A stretch of 64,000 bases of DNA from a virus. Position 1 is the stretch's first letter. Each line of letters starts with the position of its first letter. The position numbers were made by a program, and so were the translations under genes. Positions 19,713-33,160 of the stretch are shown here, in pieces. The stretch covers positions 1 through 64,000 of IMG/VR virus record IMGVR_UViG_3300020469_003886; one strand, 5' to 3'. Under the pieces are notes generated by a model that saw only the letters and a program-made list of their open reading frames with translations, was not told the DNA's origin and did no database searches.

Positions 19713-20816
19713 TTAAAAATTTTGATGAGCAAATTTTAGATCTGGCCTTGACTCTAATGATTGTCCACATTTCTGGGCACATCTATGCAGTTTTGGATTA
19801 TTTTCGTCTTGCAATGTTTGGCCAAAACTATCCACAAGATTTTTTCCATACCATTCATTTTTTAATATTTGTTGTAATGAATGTGTGTTTACGTTGATAA
19901 ATTCTCTGCCATATTTTTTATATGTTTTAAAAATAAAGTCATTTGCTTCAGATCTTTTTGTCATATAAACACGTTGATACGTATAACAACAAGGAAATAT
20001 GTCTCCATTGGTAGCAAAGAACACTGCATTTTTTAAATTAGACCATTCGCAGTTTACTTTTTTGGCATTAAATTTTTCTAACATATTTTTCTTTTGTGTT
20101 TGCCAATCATGTGTTATCGAATGAGAACTGTTGTATTCTGTATCTTTAAATTTAGAAGGAACTTGAAACGTTTTTAAACTGTCATTAGGTTCTAATTCTC
20201 TACCACCGTTATTAGGTGAAACTGTAAAAGTAGCAAATTTCATTTTCTTAGCCAAATCTCTTGCTTGATCAATTTGATGTTTATTGTGTTCAAATTTAAT
20301 CATTTTCCAATGTGCTTTTCCGCCAGCATCAATAAATGCTTGAGCATTTTCAATAATTTTATCCCACTTGGTCATTCTTCTGTATAGATGATTCGTATCT
20401 TCTAGTCCATCAATTGAAAAAGCAATATAATTTTCTTCGTTAAAACTCATTAACTTACCAAGATCTTTCCAATAGTTAGGTGTTCTTAGACTTGCATTTG
20501 TGTTAGCACTAACAATAATTTTAGGATTCTTTTTTGCAATCCATTCAACTGTATCTAAAAAAATGCTACTTGCTAATGGATCACCAAACACAGGTGTGTG
20601 ATCAATTCTATAAACTTTTGACAAAGACCATTTATCAAACATTTTTTCCCATGTTTCAAACTTCATGTCTGCTTCAAAAGGCATATAAGGATTTAAGTAT
20701 TGTCCTTTTGCTCGATTTTCATCAACTCTAGCACACATAGGACACATGGCATTACATTTAGTTGTAAGTTCTACCTGTATTTCTATTGGCTTGTCTAAAT
20801 TAAGATATGATGTCAT
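19713..20816 (-). CDS. radical SAM protein with C-terminal SPASM/twitch domain
   Basis: CNAMCPMC; SIDG; GDIFPCC...CAQKCG. Confidence 0.9.
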   Translation of the reverse strand: MTSYLNLDKPIEIQVELTTKCNAMCPMCARVDENRAKGQYLNPYMPFEADMKFETWEKMFDKWSLSKVYRIDHTPVFGDPLASSIFLDTVEWIAKKNPKIIVSANTNASLRTPNYWKDLGKLMSFNEENYIAFSIDGLEDTNHLYRRMTKWDKIIENAQAFIDAGGKAHWKMIKFEHNKHQIDQARDLAKKMKFATFTVSPNNGGRELEPNDSLKTFQVPSKFKDTEYNSSHSITHDWQTQKKNMLEKFNAKKVNCEWSNLKNAVFFATNGDIFPCCYTYQRVYMTKRSEANDFIFKTYKKYGREFINVNTHSLQQILKNEWYGKNLVDSFGQTLQDENNPKLHRCAQKCGQSLESRPDLKFAHQNF

Positions 20817-22349: not shown

Positions 22350-22601
22350 TTATCGCTTTAACATAGGATATATATCTTTTACTTTGGTTCTATATGCTAG
22401 TGTATCTGCACTATACCCCATTTGTGCTATGTCTTTGCGTTTTTTACGTGCATTTTTAAAAATTTTACCAAATGGATCAACTGCTTTGATTGCCTGTGCG
22501 TGTGTAGTACCAGGTGTCACTGGAAAAGCAAGTGTGGCTATATTACCACTTGCTGTTGACCCTGCTGTTGCATCTTCTGTGATGATATCTATAATACGCA
22601 T
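22350..22601 (-). CDS. putative internal head protein
   Basis: MRIIDIITE N-terminus; TATAAATA 5 nt upstream. Confidence 0.65.
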   Translation of the reverse strand: MRIIDIITEDATAGSTASGNIATLAFPVTPGTTHAQAIKAVDPFGKIFKNARKKRKDIAQMGYSADTLAYRTKVKDIYPMLKR

Positions 22602-22606
22602 AACAT

Positions 22607-22614
22607 TATTTATA
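22607..22614 (-). promoter_or_regulatory. T4-type late promoter
   Basis: Exact TATAAATA. Confidence 0.65.
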
Positions 22615-23869
22615 GTTTTATTGAATCTAAGAACTCTATCAGTTGTGGATCTAAATGATTGCTGTATGACTGTTTTCTGTTTATATCAAAATTAACTATT
22701 TCTGACTTCATTTTTTTCCATATTTTCATTTTATCTGTGTCATCTATTTGAATTGCATTTTTTAGATATTGCTTAACTTCATTTAAACTTGAATCATGCA
22801 AGGTGTTTAGTTTATCTAATTGTGATTTGATGATATAATTTGGTAGCCATTTTACTGCTAAAGGACCTTCGTACGGATGAACAAAATCAAAAGAATAGTA
22901 TATGGTTTTACCTACTATTCCTTTATAAAATTCTTTATAGTAGTTAATATAATCATATACGTTGTGCAGATTATAAACTGATAAAACAAATGCGTGAGAT
23001 ATATCTTCACAATTTACATCTGAATTAATAAAGTTTGTTATGCTTTTTTGTAATTTATTGAATGGCATTGGATATCTAATGTATTCATATGTTTGATTAA
23101 TTCCATCGATACTAAACACTGGAGAAAAAACTCTAAACTTTTTAATTTTTTCTAAAACTTCATTTGTAAATTTTGTTGCATTAGTAATTACTTGCAGATC
23201 AATATGATGTGCATTGTCTGTTTCTATTGCATAATCTAAAAATTCTTTAAATCTTTTGCTGACAAAAACTTCTCCTCCTGTGAATTTGATGTGTTCACAA
23301 GTGTCTAAATTATCTAATAGATATTTCCATTCATATTCATCAGCAGTGTTTAATTTATTAGTATCTGTAAATTGATCCCACCCTGTTGGTAATTCTACAT
23401 CTCTATCTTTAAACATTCTAAAATCTTTTCGTAACTTATCGCTAATCCATGGAGCACACATTCTACATCTTAAATTACATTCATTACTTACTTGTATATC
23501 ATATGATGTTACTTGAAGATTACTAATTGATTTTGCGTGTATCTCTCCATTGGGTGAATAACGCAAACGATCACTTGATCCTGTTTCTGCTTCTCTTTGC
23601 CAACATGATTTACATGCAGGATTTTTTATATTGTTCAATGCATCACTTCTTAACTTTTTAAAAGTTGAATGATCAAAAATATTTTTAATTTTATTGCCTG
23701 GAGAGCTTTCTATTTCATGTTTCCATGATTCCCAACCCATAGGGTCATTTTGTGTGTTTTGAGAAACACAACAAGGAGCCGGTACACTAATTTTACCATT
23801 TTGCCATTCTTTAATTGCAAGTCTATGAAATGGATACCAACAAAATGTATTATCCTTAGCGGGCTTCAT
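22610..23869 (-). CDS. radical SAM protein with N-terminal SPASM/twitch domain
   Basis: FCWYPF...PCC...CKSC, then CNLRCRMC and FTGGE. Confidence 0.9.
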   Translation of the reverse strand: MKPAKDNTFCWYPFHRLAIKEWQNGKISVPAPCCVSQNTQNDPMGWESWKHEIESSPGNKIKNIFDHSTFKKLRSDALNNIKNPACKSCWQREAETGSSDRLRYSPNGEIHAKSISNLQVTSYDIQVSNECNLRCRMCAPWISDKLRKDFRMFKDRDVELPTGWDQFTDTNKLNTADEYEWKYLLDNLDTCEHIKFTGGEVFVSKRFKEFLDYAIETDNAHHIDLQVITNATKFTNEVLEKIKKFRVFSPVFSIDGINQTYEYIRYPMPFNKLQKSITNFINSDVNCEDISHAFVLSVYNLHNVYDYINYYKEFYKGIVGKTIYYSFDFVHPYEGPLAVKWLPNYIIKSQLDKLNTLHDSSLNEVKQYLKNAIQIDDTDKMKIWKKMKSEIVNFDINRKQSYSNHLDPQLIEFLDSIKL

Positions 23870-23882
23870 TAGAAGTTATCCT

Positions 23883-24683
23883 TTATTTCTTTTTTCCTGA
23901 TTTCATATTAGCACACCAGTGATACATTTTTGCACGTTCACCTGATGCTTTTTTAGCCTTTGCTCTTAAACTTGTGACTGATCCTTTGCAACTGGCGCCT
24001 GAACGTTTAACACGTCCTGGTCTGCTTTTGCCTTTTTTCTTGCCATCAGCAAAATTTTCGTTTGTTTCTGTTCCTGTATAGTATGGTGTTCTTTTCATCC
24101 ATACTTCGTATTCTCGTTTATACCATTCACCATCATCGTCTTCTGCATTGTGTACCAATTCAATTAGGTTGGTAAAATTAAGTATAGCATCTCCTGGGTT
24201 AAAATTTTTTTCTACTAATTCAAAGTCATCTTTTTTAAAACCCATATTTCCTTGCATCATACTCTGAACAAAGTTTTTTGCACCTTTTATATTATAAGCA
24301 AATGGAATGAATACGTCATCAGTTGGAGCACTGCTTTTATCTTTTTTCTCGTATCTGTATAGTTTTGTTATTCCAGAATAATCAGTAAAGGACGGATGAT
24401 CGTTTTTTATTTTAATGATATCGCTTATAGTATTGTCCAATATAGCATTAGATTCATAATAATCTCTTACAGCATCTATAATATCATACCAGCCATCTTC
24501 GCCATACTTCTTAATCATAGCCTTCTGCCATTGTGCTAGGGATTGAGTCTTTTCAGTTATACTTTCTTTTTTCTTTTTTTTGCCGGCACAGTGGGCTTTT
24601 TGTGAGAAACCTTTTGGGTTACTACAATTAATTGAGCTTTTATATTTTTTGCTCCACTTTTCTGTTAGTTCTATGTATCTCAT
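23883..24683 (-). CDS. modular protein: 2-Cys basic peptide + ART-like domain + 2-Cys basic peptide
   Basis: MRYIELTE|KWS...SITE|...LYR...EYEV...TNE|NFADG. Confidence 0.65.
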   Translation of the reverse strand: MRYIELTEKWSKKYKSSINCSNPKGFSQKAHCAGKKKKKESITEKTQSLAQWQKAMIKKYGEDGWYDIIDAVRDYYESNAILDNTISDIIKIKNDHPSFTDYSGITKLYRYEKKDKSSAPTDDVFIPFAYNIKGAKNFVQSMMQGNMGFKKDDFELVEKNFNPGDAILNFTNLIELVHNAEDDDGEWYKREYEVWMKRTPYYTGTETNENFADGKKKGKSRPGRVKRSGASCKGSVTSLRAKAKKASGERAKMYHWCANMKSGKKK

Positions 24684-25084
24684 TTTTTATACTTGTTGCT
24701 AACATTCTTTGCCTTGCCGCTTCTATTTGCGTTTGTGTCTTTTCTACGTTTTCTATTAACTGCTTGAGCTATTGCTTTCTTGCCACCTTTGGATCTCAAT
24801 GATGATGCTCTGGCTTTTGATAGACATTTTGGTTTGCCTTCACCTTTTTTACGATCACCACACTTACCAATTCTTTCGCCTTTGGTGTTGTAACGATCCC
24901 AGCCACCGCCGCCGGCGCCACCTTTTTTGCCTTTACCAAACCAAGCACGTAGATCTTCTTCAACATCTTGCTGTGATTCAACTTTACGACAATCAGGTAC
25001 ACGTTTGCCAAACATCATTTTAGTGCCGTGCTTTTTGTAGCCCTTCCAACAACGTGTGCCTTCTAATAACTCAATTAATCTCAT
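24680..25084 (-). CDS. modular protein with two 2-Cys basic peptides
   Basis: MRLIELLE|GTRCWKGY...VEE|DLRAWF. Confidence 0.7.
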   Translation of the reverse strand: MRLIELLEGTRCWKGYKKHGTKMMFGKRVPDCRKVESQQDVEEDLRAWFGKGKKGGAGGGGWDRYNTKGERIGKCGDRKKGEGKPKCLSKARASSLRSKGGKKAIAQAVNRKRRKDTNANRSGKAKNVSNKYKK

Positions 25085-25425
25085 TACTTCTTACTCTTGT
25101 TGCCCCAGTTCTTTGCACCAACTTTTCTGCATCTTACCAATGCACCGCTGGCATAGGCTGAGGGCCATACTTTGTATCTTGATTTTACTTTGTGATAACA
25201 AGCATCTTGTTTTTCAGCCAATATGTCAAACTCTTCTTCAGTCATCATTTGTTGTGATTCAACAAATACTGATACCATATCGTCGCCGTTGTTGAGTCCA
25301 CCTTTTTTAACTTTTACATTTGCTTTGCCGTATTCTTTTTCGGCTTCTGCTGGAGACATACTAGTTTGTTTCCAACGCTTTTCTGCTTCTGTAATTGACT
25401 TACTTTTAAGTTCATCTATTCTCAT
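25084..25425 (-). CDS. modular protein ending in a 2-Cys basic peptide
   Basis: MRIDEL...SITE|AEK...ILAE|KQDACYHKVK. Confidence 0.7.
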   Translation of the reverse strand: MRIDELKSKSITEAEKRWKQTSMSPAEAEKEYGKANVKVKKGGLNNGDDMVSVFVESQQMMTEEEFDILAEKQDACYHKVKSRYKVWPSAYASGALVRCRKVGAKNWGNKSKK

Positions 25426-26066
25426 TTGCCCATCCTTATATTAATTTGATTCCAATCAATGATTGTCATCATTGCTTTAATATATTTACCCTTGGCATCT
25501 TTTGCAGGAATATAATCTGTAAAAGAGTGTTCCCACATGTCAATTGGCATTAATATATCTGTCTTGTATGATTGATTTGGTGTTGTTTTAAGTTCACCTG
25601 ACTTACTCAAGTATACCCAACCTGAACCTTGTATGGTCATTGCTGTCTTAATCATTTCATCAACAAATGAACTCATGTCTCCAAATCTGTGTTCAATTAA
25701 TTCTTTAATGGCACCATCTGGTTTTGAACCATCTGCTTTTTGTAATTGTTCCCAAAATAAATTGTGTAGCATAGCACCACCATAATTAAAATCTGGATCA
25801 CCTTCTTTGTTGTTGTATCTAGTTACATATCCGTTTGATAATATATTGTAGTGATATTCTACATTGTCTTTAGATAGCACTGGTGCTAAATCTTTTGTTT
25901 CATAAGCCAACTTTTTTAATTCTAGTTTTTGTGGTTTTGACTCGTTCATAGATAGTTTCATCCTTTCGTGATGTCTTCGTGCAAACTCTTTGCGAGGATT
26001 TGGCATTTGTATAAAATGCGGATTCTCGCCAATGCCTGCCAATTGTTTTAATCTTGCTATATCCAC
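25422..26066 (-). CDS. sod: Mn/Fe superoxide dismutase with N-terminal extension (probable GTG start)
   Basis: YHY, NYGGAMLHNLFW, QGSGW, PNQ, DMWEH; N-terminal DIARLKQLAGI...SMNE. Confidence 0.88.
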   Translation of the reverse strand: MDIARLKQLAGIGENPHFIQMPNPRKEFARRHHERMKLSMNESKPQKLELKKLAYETKDLAPVLSKDNVEYHYNILSNGYVTRYNNKEGDPDFNYGGAMLHNLFWEQLQKADGSKPDGAIKELIEHRFGDMSSFVDEMIKTAMTIQGSGWVYLSKSGELKTTPNQSYKTDILMPIDMWEHSFTDYIPAKDAKGKYIKAMMTIIDWNQINIRMGK

Positions 26067-26067
26067 T

Positions 26068-29000
26068 TTACACACTTCTCCAATGGAAACTTGCTGTTTG
26101 TGGATCATTAGTAATTGATAATGAAGCCGCTTGTACGTGTCTTGTACCTATTTGATTTACAAACTCTTCAGGTGTTCCTGTAATACTAAATGATCGTTTA
26201 CCTGTGTCAACTGTCATAATAGTTTCTACACCGTCTGATAATTTATAACTTACAAGTTGTACATACGTAATTAAATTTCTAAATCTATTAAAATTAATTG
26301 GTCCACCTTCTGTGCCTGGCTGTATTGCATTATCAATCATTTTTTTAATATTTGTTTGTGCTTGTTTGTAAACTTCATCATAGTTTGTAACTAATGCTTG
26401 TAATACACCAACAACATATTGATTTAGTTTTTCATTATCAAATGTTGCTAATTTTTTATTTAGAGTTGCTAGATATTTTTCACTAATAGTGTATGATTTC
26501 TTTTCTAAGTCATCAACAGTTATTCCAAGATCAGCATATAATCTTTTCATGTTAGCCAATGCACCTTTACCATCTTGTATTGCTGTTCCGTTTAATCTAG
26601 CACCACTGCCTTTGGCTTGTGATCCTGACTTAACTTCTACCCCTAGTGTTTTTCCATCTGGCATAGTAACTGCAAGGTCACCTTTTACTCCACCAGTACC
26701 TGTTGATACCGGGGATCCAATTGCACTTAATAAAATTTCTGCTGGGCCTAATGCTCCGCCTGTACCTGCTTCACCTTTATAATTAATTAAATCATTAACT
26801 ACAATGTCATAAACGTCTTTGTGCTTTTTAACAAACTGATCAATTGTACCTTGTTTTGCTTTAACCATTGCTGGCATATCAACAACATTACCAGCTACAC
26901 AATCTTTAACAAAATTTATAACTTGTTGTTCAGTAAGTGCATTTTTAAAATAAACATAATTGAAAAATAAAGAAAAAAGTCCTTGTGTTAATTTTTCTTT
27001 AGCCATTTCTGCATTTGCTTGAACTTTCTTTTGTTTTGAATCGTATTTTCCGCCTGGATCAGGATCTTGATAATTTGCTACTTTTCTTGCTAGTAATTCA
27101 ATTTCTGAATTTAGCCTTTTAATATTATTTGTTGACTTTGCTTTTTCTTCTTCTTGACCTTTACCATACTGTTCTTTACCGTATGCTTTTTTCTCTTTAT
27201 CAACATTAACTTGAAGTTCTTTCAAAGTAATTATTAATTGATTTTTTAACTGTCCATCTGGTAGTGTTTCAATTTGATCTGCAATTGTTTTAAAATTTTG
27301 TAAAGTTGCACTAACCACTGCTGGTGAAATTGATTGTCCTGCAACTGCTGTGTCCATTTCAGGTTCTTCTGCTACTTGTTCTTGCCCTGTTGCCTTAGAC
27401 AGCAGTGCTTTAAGTTTTTGAATTCCTTGTTGTACTATTCCAACTGTTTCTGGATTTGCTTTTACTTTATTTTCTATATCATTAACAGTTCTTTCAATAT
27501 TTTGATTTTGCGGTGATGGTGCCTCAAGTATACCGTGCTTGATCAACAGTTGTTCTAACTGTTCTTTAACAGGCAACATGTAGTGATTTTTTCTACCTTT
27601 GGTCAAGTATGAAAGTGTACGCCAAGTTTTAAACCAATCTTCTGTGCCTGGTTTTGATGTTGCTTTCATTTTTTGCCACATTTTTGTACCAGGATGTGAT
27701 AGCAAACTCATTTCGCCGCCGTCATTTTGATATGGTACTTCTGATGCTACTTCACGTGTTGCTTTAAGCATTTTGCCAATACCTTTTTTAACTTCTTGTA
27801 AATCTATCTGTTGTTGTAGTGTTAAGTCTTTGTTTGAACCATTGATTCTAATCAATGCTTCTTGCATACGTTTTACACGTCTTAAATTCTTTGGTGCCAT
27901 AATAGGTGGTACTCCGTCTTTGGTTACTTTGAATCCAAATTTGGCTGACTGTTTTTTGATTGCATCAACTCCAACATCGTGTGTGGTGTTTATGCCCTTG
28001 ACAACTCTGCCACCATGTTCTGTTAAATTATTTTTTTCTTTGAAGTCTTTTATACTGTTTTGTACTTTTGACAATGGATCTTCATCTGCTTGATACTTAA
28101 CACCATAGCCTCCACGTTGTAACCAACCTTGAATATTTTTGCCTCTGTCATCAATCAATATATTTTGTGTGCCATCTGCCTGCACAGCATATGAATCTTT
28201 TCTACCTACCACAATAATTTCATCTGGTTGTATTCCAAGTTCTCTTTTGATCCATTTGATCTTTTGTACTTTTGAATTTTCGTGATCGCCTCTCAATGGA
28301 GATGATAATATTTTGTAACTACCAAATTCTTTCACAACCATTTGTATCAATTTGTCGGTAGTTGGAAACTTTGGTAATCTATCAAAAAAATCTGTGCCAA
28401 TCATTTTATCTAGTGTTGGGTCTGTTTTAGCAGGTGGAATATCTTTGTAATTTCCTGTAGTTACTCCTGCAAGTTTGGCATACTCGGCAAAAAAGTTTGC
28501 AAGTACTCCATCCATATCAACATAAGCAATTGGTTTGCCTTGTGGTGCTTCGTCCATATCAAATGATTTACTTTTGTGTTTTGCATAACCTCTTTTGTCT
28601 AGTGCTTTTTTATCTTTGTGTGATCCAGCCGCTCCACTTTTTCTAATGGCTTCCATATCTTTCCAATTTGGATCACGTGATTTGATATCTGGCTTCTTTG
28701 GCATTTTTGGTTTGTTTGCCATTTCTGATGTGTTATTTGATTTTTCTAAACTTTTTCTAATTATTTCAATTCTTTTTCCTGCTTCGCCTGTTCTTGATTG
28801 GATTTCATCATCTGTTTTGCCTTTTTTAATTAGTTTGATGATAAGCTCTTTTGTCATTGTTGCATAATTTTCTTGTACTTGTTCTTGAATTCCCATACCT
28901 TGTCTTACTTTTGTGTATAATTGTTGTTTTAATTTTTCGCCCCCGTCAATGGTTTGTGAAAATGTTTTAAAGTCACCTGCTTTTGCAAGTGCTCTTGCCT

Positions 29001-29448
29001 TAGATGCTGACACCCCAGATACATCAGTAGCATCTGCATCTCGTTCACCTGAGCTTACTATTGAAAATTTTTCAATGCCAAAATCTTTTAGGTATGGTCT
29101 CATTTGTGATTCAAAGTCTTGTTTTCGATCTGAACCAACCACCATAATAACTTCATTGTATTGTTTGCCTAATTCTTCAAGAGCTTCCCACGGTGTGCGA
29201 ATAGATGGGTCATCCATGATATTCATGTGTGGGAACATTGCTCTTAAAAATGTAATTTTATCTTTGTATTGTAATGGATTCTTTTTTGGGTCATTAGTTT
29301 TACCCGTGAATACATAATGGTCAGCACCACTGGCGGCGTTTTTCACTACGTCCATCAATCGTGCGTGTCCTTTGGTTGGCGGATTGAATCTGCCAAATGT
29401 AAACACTGCCTTTTCTGCGTTTGGTTCTAATAACTCATTTAAAATCAT
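26068..29448 (-). CDS. polyprotein-like: cytidylyltransferase-like + HAD 5'-nucleotidase-like + PD-(D/E)xK-like domains
   Basis: MILNELLE start; FGRFNPPTKGH, VVGSDR, VSASKAR; VDMDGVL...LIDD; GPAE...KGDL...VEVKS. Confidence 0.8.
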   Translation of the reverse strand: MILNELLEPNAEKAVFTFGRFNPPTKGHARLMDVVKNAASGADHYVFTGKTNDPKKNPLQYKDKITFLRAMFPHMNIMDDPSIRTPWEALEELGKQYNEVIMVVGSDRKQDFESQMRPYLKDFGIEKFSIVSSGERDADATDVSGVSASKARALAKAGDFKTFSQTIDGGEKLKQQLYTKVRQGMGIQEQVQENYATMTKELIIKLIKKGKTDDEIQSRTGEAGKRIEIIRKSLEKSNNTSEMANKPKMPKKPDIKSRDPNWKDMEAIRKSGAAGSHKDKKALDKRGYAKHKSKSFDMDEAPQGKPIAYVDMDGVLANFFAEYAKLAGVTTGNYKDIPPAKTDPTLDKMIGTDFFDRLPKFPTTDKLIQMVVKEFGSYKILSSPLRGDHENSKVQKIKWIKRELGIQPDEIIVVGRKDSYAVQADGTQNILIDDRGKNIQGWLQRGGYGVKYQADEDPLSKVQNSIKDFKEKNNLTEHGGRVVKGINTTHDVGVDAIKKQSAKFGFKVTKDGVPPIMAPKNLRRVKRMQEALIRINGSNKDLTLQQQIDLQEVKKGIGKMLKATREVASEVPYQNDGGEMSLLSHPGTKMWQKMKATSKPGTEDWFKTWRTLSYLTKGRKNHYMLPVKEQLEQLLIKHGILEAPSPQNQNIERTVNDIENKVKANPETVGIVQQGIQKLKALLSKATGQEQVAEEPEMDTAVAGQSISPAVVSATLQNFKTIADQIETLPDGQLKNQLIITLKELQVNVDKEKKAYGKEQYGKGQEEEKAKSTNNIKRLNSEIELLARKVANYQDPDPGGKYDSKQKKVQANAEMAKEKLTQGLFSLFFNYVYFKNALTEQQVINFVKDCVAGNVVDMPAMVKAKQGTIDQFVKKHKDVYDIVVNDLINYKGEAGTGGALGPAEILLSAIGSPVSTGTGGVKGDLAVTMPDGKTLGVEVKSGSQAKGSGARLNGTAIQDGKGALANMKRLYADLGITVDDLEKKSYTISEKYLATLNKKLATFDNEKLNQYVVGVLQALVTNYDEVYKQAQTNIKKMIDNAIQPGTEGGPINFNRFRNLITYVQLVSYKLSDGVETIMTVDTGKRSFSITGTPEEFVNQIGTRHVQAASLSITNDPQTASFHWRSV

Positions 29449-29449
29449 A

Positions 29450-29596
29450 TTATCTTCTTTTACCTTGTCCAGCATATGGTTTGTAAGAACGTCTTTTACT
29501 TTTGTTCATCGATGACATTTTCAATCTGCCGCGACCAATTGTTGTTCTTTTTGCTACATGCTCGATACTAGAGGATTGCCCCATCATCTTTGCCAT
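29450..29596 (-). CDS. 48-aa basic protein (not in ORF track)
   Basis: MAKMMGQSSSIEHVAKRTTIGRGRLKMSSMNKSKRRSYKPYAGQGKRR; AGGAG SD. Confidence 0.75.
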   Translation of the reverse strand: MAKMMGQSSSIEHVAKRTTIGRGRLKMSSMNKSKRRSYKPYAGQGKRR

Positions 29597-31921: not shown

Positions 31922-33160
31922 TTACCATGCTCTACAACTCCAGTATCTTGCCTTTGTTCTTGGCCCTGGATTTGAGCAGTTATGTCTTGCACGGAAACTT
32001 TTTCTACGTGCTGGGTTTGATTTTTTGATACGCATTGTTTTTGAATCTTTGTTCTTGCCGCCGCCTTGGTGACCAAAACGTACCATTTTTACGTTTCCTG
32101 TTTTAGGATCTTTTACATAAACTTTAAATTTACCTGGCTCATCTGTGCCAGTTCTAATTGGCTTACTTAACTTAACTGTTTTGCCTTTGTACTTGGCTTC
32201 AAATGTTTGACCAAAATTTCGTTTGTTTTTATCTTTTTTAAAGTAAGGCTCTTTTGCACCTTTTGGTTTGTCGTATGTTTTAGCACCAATTTTAGAGTCT
32301 GTGTCTTTGTATATTGGTTTTGGATTTTTGCCGGGGACCATAAATCCTAATACGCCGCCTTCATCGACACCAAAACCTACAATGTCGTCGCCTAAGATCT
32401 TTGCCGCCTCTGTACAGTTGTCTTCATCAATTTCTGATACACCCATAACTTTCATAAATTCTTCGTGCATAGATTTAGTAATTGGCATCATAGCATAAAA
32501 AGGTTCTAATCCTTTTTCAGTAACAGCATCTTGACCGTACTTTGATGTAACTTTGTTGTATTCGTTAATTTCAGCGCCATCTGAAAGTATACCAGTATCA
32601 ATATAACCTTTTAGCATTCCTGCTGGTAATTCGTCTCCGTTGCTTCCTTCATAATTTTTGTATTTGTTGTACCAAGCCTCTAATGCTGATTTGTCAACTG
32701 CTTCATTAACATCTTGTTCGTTTTTATCAAAGCCTGCTTGTACCATTTCGTATTCTAAATAATCTTTTACCACTTTTAAGTAATCTGATGCTTTGGTTAG
32801 TTTTGATGCTACCCAACCTTCAATACCTTCACGTTCAGAAACTTTTTGCAACATATCATGAACTGCTTTTGCGTTTTTCATTGCATGGTACATTTGTGAT
32901 TTGCCCATGTTCACTTCATGATCTTGTTCTTGTGATTCTTGCTCTTGTGGTTCTTGTTCCATTTCGCAACCACATGCTTCTTCTAAATCTGAAATAAATT
33001 TTAGTGCTTTGTCATCTGCTAGTACAGTAACAGAGTTTTCATCAATTTTTTCGATTGTAGTTGAAATTAATGCTGTGCTTTCGCCAAACTCAAGATCAAT
33101 TGCATCACCAACTTGTGGTGTTGCTGATAGAATATCAATATATTTTCTTATATCTTGCAT
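31922..33160 (-). CDS. modular putative internal head protein ending in a basic 2-Cys domain
   Basis: MQDIRKYIDILS; LEE/VNE/VDE/TFE junctions; C-terminal ...RHNCSNPGPRTKARYWSCRAW. Confidence 0.7.
   Translation of the reverse strand: MQDIRKYIDILSATPQVGDAIDLEFGESTALISTTIEKIDENSVTVLADDKALKFISDLEEACGCEMEQEPQEQESQEQDHEVNMGKSQMYHAMKNAKAVHDMLQKVSEREGIEGWVASKLTKASDYLKVVKDYLEYEMVQAGFDKNEQDVNEAVDKSALEAWYNKYKNYEGSNGDELPAGMLKGYIDTGILSDGAEINEYNKVTSKYGQDAVTEKGLEPFYAMMPITKSMHEEFMKVMGVSEIDEDNCTEAAKILGDDIVGFGVDEGGVLGFMVPGKNPKPIYKDTDSKIGAKTYDKPKGAKEPYFKKDKNKRNFGQTFEAKYKGKTVKLSKPIRTGTDEPGKFKVYVKDPKTGNVKMVRFGHQGGGKNKDSKTMRIKKSNPARRKSFRARHNCSNPGPRTKARYWSCRAW

What the first reader, a model, noticed from the sequence alone, without database searches (positions are those of the whole stretch)
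23883..25425. Battery of cationic peptides, each with exactly two cysteines
Seen: splitting at the xxE sites gives Lys/Arg/Gly-rich modules that each have exactly two Cys. They are KWSKKYKSSINC-x11-C, NFADG..C-x24-C, GTRCWKGY (C-x19-C), DLRAWF..C-x11-C and KQDAC-x22-C, plus a sixth at the end of 31922-33160 (C-x13-C), which shares NCSNP with the first. Inference: disulfide- or thioether-closed mini-proteins that condense DNA, bind rRNA or act like antimicrobial peptides. Radical SAM/SPASM genes (19713, 22610) are interleaved in this block, so a leader-core RiPP-like logic is possible, with the head protease as leader peptidase.
Basis: partly seen in the sequence, partly recalled or inferred. 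Interest (0 to 1): 0.8.

Follow-up and report, generated by a model that had tools for sequence, protein, structure and literature searches.

The report
Basic two-cysteine peptides of phage heads
Three small genes of a large marine T4-like phage encode strongly basic mini-domains, each with one invariant cysteine pair, which are most likely cut free by the head protease and packed with the DNA inside the capsid; they are not substrates of the neighbouring radical SAM enzymes.

Summary
Three overlapping minus-strand ORFs (113, 134 and 266 aa) and the end of a 412-aa ORF carry six unrelated basic modules. Each is 3-10 kDa, carries a net charge of +7 to +25, and has exactly two Cys at the stated spacings. 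All six are conserved families. Both Cys are invariant, and in the four complete copies that lack them, both are replaced together.

The RiPP reading fails. Five complete cyanomyophage genomes carrying three to four of the modules (C, D, E; A in S-SM2) have no radical SAM gene. Only 10 of 80 related loci have one within the fetched flanks (at most 10 kb a side). The "core" is 85-98% conserved.

The reading as virion peptides freed by the head protease is supported:
- Modules sit behind 8-9-residue leaders resembling the T4 capsid-targeting sequence.
- 130 of 139 distinct junctions have Glu at -1, and 110 of 139 have a hydrophobic residue at -3. This is the T4 gp21 motif L/I-x-E.
- Module F starts directly at Met-Ala in 4 of 4 genomes lacking a T4-type head protease. 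It follows an extension ending in φ-x-E in 4 of 4 genomes that have one.
- The cyanophage S-SM1 protein that fuses modules C, D and E was detected in purified virions (Sullivan 2010).

DNA binding, cleavage and the chemistry of the Cys pair remain inferred. I rate this a new variant of a known kind (T4 internal proteins).

The parts
25084..25425 (-). ORF of 113 aa: leader MRIDELKSKSITE, an acidic middle part, then module E
   Evidence: PHROG 727/38880/3477, function unknown; more than 4254 metagenome clusters, many of them stand-alone 63-aa ORFs made of a leader plus module E
25087..25212 (-). Module E (residues 72-113, KQDAC-x22-C; 4.8 kDa, net +11). The conserved domain starts at about residue 61 with an acidic helix ITEEEFDxLAE
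   Evidence: alignment A2: C16, C39 and WPSAYASGA invariant; charge and mass; 366 phage records, mostly cyanomyophages
24680..25084 (-). ORF of 134 aa: leader MRLIELLE, module C, an acidic disordered linker, module D
   Evidence: AF2 model, mean pLDDT 66.8
24977..25060 (-). Module C (residues 9-36, GTRCWKGY...VPDC, C-x19-C; 3.3 kDa, net +7), predicted beta-hairpin with Cys12 before the first strand and Cys32 in the second
   Evidence: strands 16-24 and 27-34, pLDDT 75-81; 42 copies, Cys pair kept in all complete ones
24683..24952 (-). Module D (residues 45-134, DLRAWF...C-x11-C...; 9.8 kDa, net +25): short strands, two helices and a basic tail
   Evidence: alignment A3: C32 and C44 invariant; AF2 pLDDT 70-89 over residues 60-115
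23883..24683 (-). ORF of 266 aa: leader MRYIELTE, module A, an acidic middle domain, module B
   Evidence: IMG/VR relatives
24561..24659 (-). Module A (residues 9-41, KWSKKYKSSINC-x11-C; 3.7 kDa, net +10)
   Evidence: alignment A7: W4, Y8, C14, H25 and C26 invariant; also at the C-terminus of S-SM2 SSM2_108
24057..24560 (-). Acidic middle domain (residues 42-209; folded as residues 40-205). It is confidently folded and ADP-ribosyltransferase-like, but the match is weak
   Evidence: AF2 pLDDT 85, pTM 0.82; best PDB rows are almost all ART-fold proteins but with E>=0.37 and Z<=4.6; invariant E152-x-E154 and near-invariant L-Y-R
23886..24056 (-). Module B (residues 210-266, NFADGKKKGKSRPG...C-x24-C...KSGKKK; 6.2 kDa, net +17)
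   Evidence: alignment A1: 89% mean column identity, C25, H48 and C50 invariant; C-terminal tail of many unrelated proteins in more than 591 viral contigs
31925..32197 (-). Module F at the end of the 412-aa ORF (residues 322-412, AKYKGKTV...RHNC-x13-C; about 10 kDa, net +23)
   Evidence: alignment A4: H73, C75 and C89 invariant; PHROG 7595; stand-alone in podo- and siphoviruses and in an archaeal spindle virus
22610..23869 (-). Radical SAM gene directly downstream. A neighbour, not a demonstrated partner
   Evidence: PF04055, E=6.3e-12; adjacency not conserved
19713..20816 (-). Radical SAM/SPASM gene. A neighbour, not a demonstrated partner
   Evidence: PF04055 and PF13186
22350..22601 (-). 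83-aa ORF with leader MRIIDIITE. Its junction aligns with the putative propeptide junction of a relative's major head protein
   Evidence: IITE|DATAGSTASGNIATL against MLAE|NATAGSTQAGNVATL, 13 of 25 identical, E=9e-6 for this single comparison

Best explanation
The three ORFs are precursors of internal head proteins. They are a marine, modular counterpart of the T4 internal proteins IPI-III.

Proposed mechanism, with each step marked as shown or inferred:
1. Targeting (inferred from resemblance). A short N-terminal leader, M-[R/K]-x-[I/L]-[E/D]-[L/I]-x-x-E, acts like the T4 capsid-targeting sequence and takes the precursor into the prohead core.
2. Cleavage (inferred from junction statistics and from the with/without-protease contrast). 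The T4-type prohead protease (Peptidase_S77) cuts after Glu at φ-x-E sites. It removes leaders and acidic spacers and frees modules A-F as 3-10 kDa peptides with net charge +7 to +25.
3. Virion location (shown only for a cyanophage homologue). The peptides stay in the head.
4. Function (inferred from charge alone). They lie against the packaged DNA as protamine-like counter-ions or condensers, and probably enter the cell with it.
5. The Cys pair (the paired role is inferred from joint loss; the chemistry is open). In each module the invariant pair works as one unit. Either it forms an intramolecular disulfide that staples a hairpin once the virion is in oxidising seawater, or it forms a Cys2(His) metal site. 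An invariant His lies within two residues of one Cys in modules A, B and F.

The acidic middle domain of the 266-aa ORF may be an enzyme cargo, ADP-ribosyltransferase-like, released in the same way.
For: Phage type
- The phage is T4-like: a protein of the window is 68.6% identical to one of Methylophilales phage Melnitz and 47.1% to one of Pelagibacter phage HTVC008M, both Kyanoviridae.
- A 288-kb relative (G026) has portal, Peptidase_S77 protease, a possible scaffold gene (PHROG of unknown function, by position only) and major head protein genes.

Leaders
- Stand-alone ORFs in relatives consist of a leader plus one module: MRIFEITE|NFADG, MKIQEIIAE|NFADG, MRASEIITE|KCWKGY, MRADEFITE|NLKQWF, MRWLEVTE|KWS.
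- In T4, the first 10 residues of IPIII suffice for packaging, and gp21 cuts after L/I-x-E (PMC9026906).
- The leader pattern occurs in 13 of 134 ORFs of the contig against 4.9 expected, and five of these are adjacent.

Junctions
- Across four module families, Glu is at -1 in 130 of 139 distinct upstream contexts (background 7%).
- I/L/V/M/F is at -3 in 110 of 139 (background 22%), and -2 is variable.

Contrast with and without the protease
- In 4 of 4 complete genomes without Peptidase_S77 (Kolga, CRP-902, HTVC112P, Nitrosopumilaceae spindle-shaped virus), module F starts M-A-x-Y.
- In 4 of 4 with it (immuto, C48C1, HTVC008M, Melnitz), the module follows an extension ending φ-x-E.
- Both routes would give the same mature N-terminus.

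Virion evidence
- S-SM1 SSM1_115 (T4-GC119) carries modules D, E, C and DUF6321.
- Sullivan et al. 2010, Table S8, lists it as detected in purified virions with 13 counts.
- The cytidylyltransferase T4-GC190, also a virion protein there, is fused to modules C and F in Melnitz gene 18. It forms the N-terminus of the leader-bearing 1135-aa ORF two genes upstream, before the SOD gene.

Other support
- The leader junction of window ORF 22350-22601 aligns with the presumed propeptide junction of G026's major head protein.
- Cys pairs are invariant, and both Cys are replaced in all 4 complete copies that lack them.
- Modules C and D are predicted to fold.
Against: - There are no virion data and no head genes for this phage itself. 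The contig is a 92-kb fragment without a protease gene.
- Cleavage has not been observed anywhere for these proteins.
- The conserved Glu could belong to the modules. Module E's conserved domain begins about 11 residues before the proposed LAE|K site, and some copies read AAGKKDACY, without Glu at -1.
- In Syn9, T4-GC119 is annotated but no peptides were detected in virions.
- Modules occur in viruses without T4-type heads, next to DNA-metabolism genes. Their basic job therefore need not be inside a capsid.
- The T4 late-promoter consensus is not enriched in the window.
- DNA binding rests on charge alone.
Confidence: 0.6

Rival explanations
1. The modules are uncleaved basic tails or inserts that tether cargo enzymes to DNA. 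Candidate cargoes are ParB-like, cytidylyltransferase, SOD and ART-like domains. The tether would act inside the capsid or in the infected cell. The φ-x-E junction would then be a structural linker feature, not a cleavage site.
For: Module B is the C-terminal tail of dozens of unrelated N-terminal domains. Melnitz gene 18 fuses an enzyme with modules C and F. The middle domain is itself shuffled among enzymes. Cleavage has never been observed.
Against: This does not explain why Glu at -1 and a hydrophobic residue at -3 recur before four tested, mutually unrelated module families (and by eye before module C) in unrelated contexts. It does not explain why stand-alone ORFs keep an 8-9-residue leader. 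It does not explain why module F is bare exactly in the genomes without the protease.
Confidence: 0.17
2. The modules are small cytoplasmic nucleic-acid-binding proteins, of nucleoid-associated or regulatory type, that many marine viruses express during infection. They would not be capsid contents. Their presence in S-SM1 virions would be incidental carry-over with the DNA.
For: Module F occurs as a stand-alone gene in podoviruses, siphoviruses and an archaeal spindle-shaped virus, among DNA-metabolism genes. Syn9 virions gave no peptides of T4-GC119. In cyanophages T4-GC119 travels in a mobile cassette.
Against: The S-SM1 homologue gave 13 counts in purified virions, similar to gp13 and gp15. 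In cyanophages the gene sits between gp15 and gp16/gp17 in the structural block. The leaders and φ-x-E junctions are specific to genomes with a T4-type protease.
Confidence: 0.15
3. The modules are RiPP-like precursors. The interleaved radical SAM/SPASM enzymes would cross-link the Cys pairs (thioether) after recognising the leader, and the head protease would act as leader peptidase.
For: Two radical SAM genes, one with a SPASM domain, lie in the same overlapping or tightly spaced gene string. The clade is very rich in radical SAM genes, with 12-18 matches on the two largest contigs and 19 of 28 contigs of 30 kb or more having at least one.
Against: Five complete cyanomyophage genomes carrying three to four of the same modules (C, D, E; A in S-SM2), with the same invariant Cys pairs, have no radical SAM gene. 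Only 10 of 80 module-B loci have a radical SAM homologue within the fetched flanks, at most 10 kb a side. The supposed cores are 85-98% conserved and the leaders are short and degenerate, the reverse of the usual RiPP pattern. The modules are predicted to be folded mini-domains of up to 90 residues.
Confidence: 0.03
4. The modules are defensin-like antimicrobial or membrane-active peptides, used against the host envelope or against competitors.
For: They are cationic and Cys-closed. The best Foldseek rows for the 134-aa model are alpha-defensins, aligned over 22-24 residues at about 1 Å rmsd.
Against: Those matches have E of about 2 and amount to a generic beta-hairpin. There is one Cys pair, not three. 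I saw no N-terminal hydrophobic stretch suggestive of a signal peptide in these ORFs (no predictor was run). The sequences are extremely conserved, with no sign of an arms race.
Confidence: 0.03

Closest known systems
[quoted passage not shown]
   Same: Both are small basic proteins of a T4-type phage. Both carry an N-terminal leader of about 10 residues with hydrophobic positions that ends in L/I-x-E. Both are inferred to be packed with the DNA and ejected with it. Gene sets are variable and shuffled between relatives (PMC9026906).
   Different: There is no sequence similarity to the T4 proteins. Here several unrelated mini-domains are strung together or appended to enzymes as polyproteins. 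Each has an invariant Cys pair. The same modules also exist leaderless in non-T4 viruses. Nothing has been shown experimentally for this phage.
Cyanomyophage T4-GC119 (S-SM1 SSM1_115, P-SSM2 PSSM2_123, S-SM2 SSM2_109), which contains Pfam DUF6321
   Same: Homologous modules C, D and E, with A in the neighbouring S-SM2 gene. The S-SM1 protein is a detected virion protein.
   Different: In cyanophages the modules are fused in one protein of 271-708 aa in the gp15-gp17 block, without the N-terminal leader, and they end in DUF6321. In the window they are split over three leader-bearing ORFs far from any head gene, with modules A and B and a middle domain added. None of the window ORFs matches DUF6321.
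Adenovirus core proteins pVII and pre-Mu, and vertebrate protamines (what it may work like; from my own knowledge, not tested here)
   Same: Both are very basic small DNA-condensing peptides. The adenovirus ones are released inside the capsid by the viral protease. Protamines lock chromatin through Cys (disulfides) and bind zinc.
   Different: The lineages are unrelated and there is no homology. DNA condensation by the phage peptides is untested.
Processed head and ejection proteins of giant phages phiKZ, 201phi2-1 and SPN3US
   Same: Many head proteins are cut after Glu at a short motif by a diverged gp21-like protease, and abundant DNA-associated internal proteins result (PMC9026906).
   Different: The motif there is S/A-x-E, the products are large inner-body proteins, and there are no two-Cys mini-domains.

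Membership tests
T4-type capsid-targeted internal proteins (CTS plus gp21 processing) | N-terminal leader of about 10 residues with hydrophobic targeting positions, ending in L/I-x-E | tested here: met
   MRYIELTE, MRLIELLE and MRIDELKSKSITE. Stand-alone relatives have the same leaders. This is resemblance in pattern only; the T4 rule comes from PMC9026906.
T4-type capsid-targeted internal proteins (CTS plus gp21 processing) | The genome encodes a T4-type prohead protease (Peptidase_S77) | tested here: inconclusive
   The own 92-kb contig has none, but CheckV rates it only 24% complete. The protease is present in the 288-kb relative G026, Melnitz, HTVC008M, S-SM1 and P-SSM2.
T4-type capsid-targeted internal proteins (CTS plus gp21 processing) | Cleavage after Glu at the leader and at internal sites | not testable with these tools
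   Indirect evidence only: Glu at -1 in 130 of 139 junctions, and a 4/4 against 4/4 contrast with and without the protease.
T4-type capsid-targeted internal proteins (CTS plus gp21 processing) | Present inside the mature head | not testable with these tools
   Known only for a homologue: S-SM1 T4-GC119 was detected in virions (PMC3037559 Table S8).
RiPP precursor with radical SAM maturase | Precursor and maturase co-occur across genomes | tested here: not met
   No radical SAM gene in 5 complete cyanomyophage genomes that carry the modules. Only 10 of 80 loci have one within the fetched flanks, at most 10 kb a side.
RiPP precursor with radical SAM maturase | Conserved leader with a variable core | tested here: not met
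   Cores are 85-98% identical across hundreds of contigs, while the leaders are short and degenerate.
RiPP precursor with radical SAM maturase | The maturase has a SPASM/twitch domain and a peptide-recognition element | tested here: inconclusive
   SPASM is present in ORF 19713-20816 and was not detected in ORF 22610-23869. No recognition element was looked for.
Pfam DUF6321 (PF19846) | Match to the family model above its cut-off | tested here: not met
   No hit for any window ORF at E<=1. The domain is present only in the cyanophage fusions.
Alpha-defensin-like peptides | Three disulfides (six Cys) and a significant fold match | tested here: not met
   Each module has two Cys. The Foldseek rows have E of about 2.
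ADP-ribosyltransferase fold, R-S-E type (middle domain of the 266-aa ORF only) | ART fold with a catalytic Arg and an E-x-E motif | tested here: inconclusive
   The AF2 model is confident (pLDDT 85). Almost all the best PDB rows are ART-fold proteins, but with E>=0.37 and Z<=4.6. E152-x-E154 is invariant and L-Y-R nearly so in 31 sequences. There is no Pfam match.

The most novel reading that the evidence does not exclude
The ocean's abundant T4-like myoviruses (cyanomyophages, pelagimyophages, methylophages and a roughly 360-kb jumbo clade) would pack their DNA with a battery of protamine-like peptides. The prohead protease would cut these from polyproteins. Each peptide would be latched by one Cys pair, as a disulfide or a Cys2His zinc site. 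The latch would close in oxidising seawater and open in the reducing cytoplasm, so that DNA is held in the virion and released on entry.
Probability: 0.25. Interest if true: 0.75.

Novelty: new variant of a known kind. Interest (0 to 1): 0.55.

Why it matters
These modules are among the commonest uncharacterised protein pieces in marine viromes. Module E alone has more than 4254 protein clusters (at 90% identity) and occurs in 366 phage records. They are filed only as domains of unknown function.

If they are protease-released head peptides, this would assign a role to a large block of viral dark matter. It would also extend the T4 internal-protein and capsid-targeting principle to cyanophages and pelagiphages. 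That principle has not been discussed for cyanomyophages in the papers I could search; one review notes only that cyanophage genomes lack the T4 prohead core proteins gp67 and gp68. It would give a simple sequence rule, leader plus φ-x-E, for predicting which proteins a marine myovirus injects. Finally, it would raise a testable idea about redox or metal control of packaged DNA.

Tried and rejected
- Pfam, NCBIfam and PHROGs give no function for any module.
- Profile searches of modules B, E, D and F against all PDB sequences found nothing better than E=0.37.
- Foldseek of the 134-aa model against the PDB found nothing significant. The alpha-defensin rows have E of about 2.
- The ESM Atlas returned only viral hypothetical clusters.
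- Profile-profile comparisons gave no evidence that the modules are paralogues: A against F 15.6% probability, B against D 0.1%.
- The T4 late-promoter consensus TATAAATA is not enriched in the window, with 4 matches against 9 expected. The single copy near this block sits only 5 nt from a start codon.
- The own contig holds no head protease, so the head module had to be read in a relative.
- The middle domain has no annotated phage relative (best E=0.6).
- A scan of 185,579 species genomes found module E only on 32 MAG contigs of unrelated phyla. I read these as mis-binned viral DNA, not as cellular homologues.
- Complex prediction, sequencing-run look-ups and read mapping were not used.
Full report
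THE OBSERVATION

The stretch 23883-25425 holds three minus-strand ORFs of 113, 134 and 266 aa. They overlap by 1 and 4 bases and continue a tightly spaced gene string. That string begins upstream with a 1135-aa ORF and a superoxide dismutase gene. It runs on downstream through two radical SAM genes.

There are two Cys in the 113-aa protein and four in each of the others. The spacings are C-x22-C (E), C-x19-C (C), C-x11-C (D), C-x11-C (A) and C-x24-C (B). The 412-aa ORF 31922-33160 ends in C-x13-C (F).

Split after the x-x-E sites, the pieces are 28-90 residues long. They have 29-33% Lys+Arg, net charge +7 to +25, and pI 10.1-11.2.

WHAT KIND OF PHAGE THIS IS

The window is part of a 92-kb IMG/VR contig. 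Its proteins resemble those of Methylophilales phage Melnitz (68.6% identity) and Pelagibacter phage HTVC008M (47.1%), both Kyanoviridae.

An IMG/VR scan with the 266-aa ORF found more than 591 related viral contigs. CheckV completeness values imply genomes of roughly 360 kb. For example, 288,815 bases are rated 80% complete, and the own contig is rated 24%. The window therefore seems to come from a jumbo T4-like marine clade.

The 288-kb relative G026 has a T4-type head module: portal, Peptidase_S77 protease, a possible scaffold gene (PHROG of unknown function, assigned by position only) and major head protein.

THE MODULES ARE REAL, CONSERVED AND SHUFFLED

I ran iterated profile searches over the six-frame ORFs of 80 related loci plus the own contig. 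They found 25, 81, 42, 23, 21 and 36 copies of modules A to F.

The two Cys are invariant columns in the alignments built for A, B, D, E and F, and the pair is kept in every complete copy of C. In a wider search the pair was missing from only four complete copies, one of B and three of F. In all four, both Cys were replaced and never just one. The pair therefore acts as a unit.

An invariant His lies within two residues of one Cys in modules A, B and F. This leaves a Cys2His metal site as an alternative to a disulfide.

Profile comparison gave no evidence of homology between the modules tested: A against F 15.6% probability, B against D 0.1%. The shared design is therefore probably convergent.

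Module B is 85-98% identical across contigs. It forms the C-terminal tail of dozens of unrelated proteins. Module E has more than 4254 protein clusters in metagenomes, many of them stand-alone 63-aa ORFs, and occurs in 366 phage records.

None of the modules has a Pfam, NCBIfam or PDB relative. PHROGs lists them as function unknown.

LINK TO A KNOWN VIRION PROTEIN

In cyanomyophages, modules D, C and E are fused with DUF6321 in one protein, gene cluster T4-GC119. It lies in the structural block next to gp15, gp16 and gp17.

The S-SM1 member, SSM1_115, contains D, E, C and DUF6321. Table S8 of Sullivan et al. 2010 (PMC3037559) lists T4-GC119 as detected in purified S-SM1 virions with 13 counts. 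That is similar to gp13 and gp15. No peptides were found in Syn9.

The same paper reports the cytidylyltransferase T4-GC190 as a virion protein. Its homologue forms the N-terminus of the leader-bearing 1135-aa ORF two genes upstream, before the SOD gene. In Melnitz gene 18 it is fused to modules C and F.

EVIDENCE FOR TARGETING AND CLEAVAGE

In T4 the first 10 residues of IPIII suffice for packaging. Residues 4 and 7 are needed for targeting and residues 8 and 10 for processing. The prohead protease gp21 cuts after L/I-x-E (PMC9026906).

Leaders. The three ORFs begin MRIDELKSKSITE, MRLIELLE and MRYIELTE. Stand-alone relatives consist of such a leader directly followed by one module. The pattern M-x3-[DE]-[ILVFM] occurs in 13 of 134 ORFs of the contig against 4.9 expected (p about 0.009). 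Five of these are adjacent genes at 20.8-25.4 kb.

Junctions. For modules A, B, D and F, in 139 distinct upstream contexts, position -1 is Glu in 130 (background 7%). Position -3 is I/L/V/M/F in 110 (background 22%). Position -2 is variable.

A natural experiment. Module F is a bare ORF beginning M-A-x-Y in the four complete genomes without Peptidase_S77. These are Pelagibacter siphovirus Kolga, Roseobacter phage CRP-902, Pelagibacter podovirus HTVC112P and a Nitrosopumilaceae spindle-shaped virus. In the four genomes with the protease (Flavobacterium phage immuto, phage C48C1, HTVC008M and Melnitz) it follows an extension ending φ-x-E. Removal of Met before Ala and cleavage after Glu would leave the same mature N-terminus. 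The first of these is inferred from general knowledge of methionine aminopeptidase.

A homologous junction. The leader junction of window ORF 22350-22601 (IITE|DATAGSTASGNIATL) aligns with MLAE|NATAGSTQAGNVATL near the N-terminus of G026's major head protein. By analogy with T4 gp23 maturation, which I take from my own knowledge, that is where the capsid protein's propeptide should be removed.

STRUCTURE

AF2 of the 134-aa ORF gave a mean pLDDT of 66.8.
- Module C is predicted as a beta-hairpin, with Cys12 before the first strand and Cys32 in the second.
- The acidic linker is disordered.
- Module D has short strands, with Cys75 and Cys87 flanking a hairpin loop, followed by two helices.

This fits Cys-stapled mini-folds. 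Foldseek found nothing significant; the top rows, alpha-defensins with E of about 2, reflect a generic hairpin.

THE MIDDLE DOMAIN OF THE 266-AA ORF

It folds confidently (pLDDT 85, pTM 0.82). Its best PDB rows are almost all ADP-ribosyltransferase-fold proteins, but the matches are weak, with E>=0.37 and Z<=4.6. E-x-E is invariant and L-Y-R nearly so in 31 sequences. This is a lead, not a result.

The domain is itself shuffled. In other metagenomic proteins it is fused to domains with weak to clear Pfam matches to SOD, GNAT and, below threshold, 5'-nucleotidase and nucleotidyltransferase. T4 Alt, a packaged ADP-ribosyltransferase trimmed by gp21 at both ends, would be the obvious analogue.

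THE RiPP IDEA

Radical SAM genes are indeed interleaved in the window, and one has a SPASM domain. The clade is rich in them, with 12-18 matches on the two largest contigs.

Three results count against a RiPP link:
- Five complete cyanomyophage genomes carrying three to four of the same modules (C, D, E; A in S-SM2), with the same invariant Cys pairs, have no radical SAM gene.
- Only 10 of 80 module-B loci have any radical SAM homologue within the fetched flanks, at most 10 kb a side.
- The pattern of a strongly conserved "core" and a degenerate "leader" is the reverse of a RiPP.

VERDICT

The most likely reading (0.6) is that these are precursors of internal head peptides of T4 type. They would be targeted by a capsid-targeting-like leader, released at φ-x-E by the prohead protease, and held with the DNA.

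What is shown:
- the conservation and shuffling of the modules;
- the junction statistics;
- the correlation with presence of the protease;
- the virion location of a cyanophage homologue.

What is inferred:
- cleavage itself;
- packaging in this phage;
- DNA binding;
- the chemistry of the Cys pair.

Main weaknesses. No head genes or proteomics exist for this phage. The conserved Glu could be part of the modules, most plausibly for module E. The modules also occur in viruses without T4-type heads.

This is a new variant of a known kind, not a new kind. I tested it here and it held at the sequence level.

Noticed in passing
window 22350-22601 (-); L102:9348-10526: An 83-aa ORF with a leader mimics the N-terminal junction of the clade's major head protein: IITE|DATAGSTASGNIATL against MLAE|NATAGSTQAGNVATL, 13 of 25 identical. 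G026 has a similar small ORF (MKSSEFIKTLKE|NASGGATGSS...). It may be a decoy or a competitor for the protease or for a capsid site.
   Followed up: partly
own contig and G001-G028: CheckV completeness values imply a clade of roughly 360-kb T4-like marine phages that are rich in radical SAM genes: 12 and 18 matches on the two largest contigs, and six such genes in this window. What these enzymes act on is unknown.
   Followed up: partly
window 26068-29475 (-): The 1135-aa ORF has an internal start giving the leader MILNELLE. Its cytidylyltransferase domain is homologous to S-SM1 T4-GC190, which is a detected virion protein. In Melnitz the same enzyme is fused with modules C and F in gene 18.
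   Followed up: partly
L063:8554-8943, L017:15800-16198, L009:12516-12902 (alignment A5): Relatives of the 134-aa ORF carry an extra CxxC piece (VDFCVNCG...) between modules C and D. It is absent from the window copy. L076 has a CPGC piece before module E.
   Followed up: no
P0135, P0139, P0144, P0145: In other metagenomic proteins the acidic middle domain of the 266-aa ORF is fused to a SOD domain (clear Pfam match), a GNAT domain (borderline) and, with weak sub-threshold matches, a 5'-nucleotidase and a nucleotidyltransferase domain. It belongs to the same shuffling pool as the window's SOD and 1135-aa genes.
   Followed up: no
L105-L136: Module E occurs at 58-93% identity on 32 contigs of MAGs assigned to unrelated phyla (Rickettsiales, Legionellales, Marinimicrobia, several archaea). 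These are most simply viral contigs binned into cellular MAGs.
   Followed up: no
window 25422-26108 (-): An Fe/Mn superoxide dismutase gene has an N-terminal extension of about 60 residues and overlaps both neighbours in the leader-bearing gene string.
   Followed up: no
L086:1504-1776 (HTVC112P gp23): The podovirus copy of module F has lost both Cys and the adjacent His together (SFFARFRPILAK...YWAIQSW). The fold can evidently do without the triad.
   Followed up: partly
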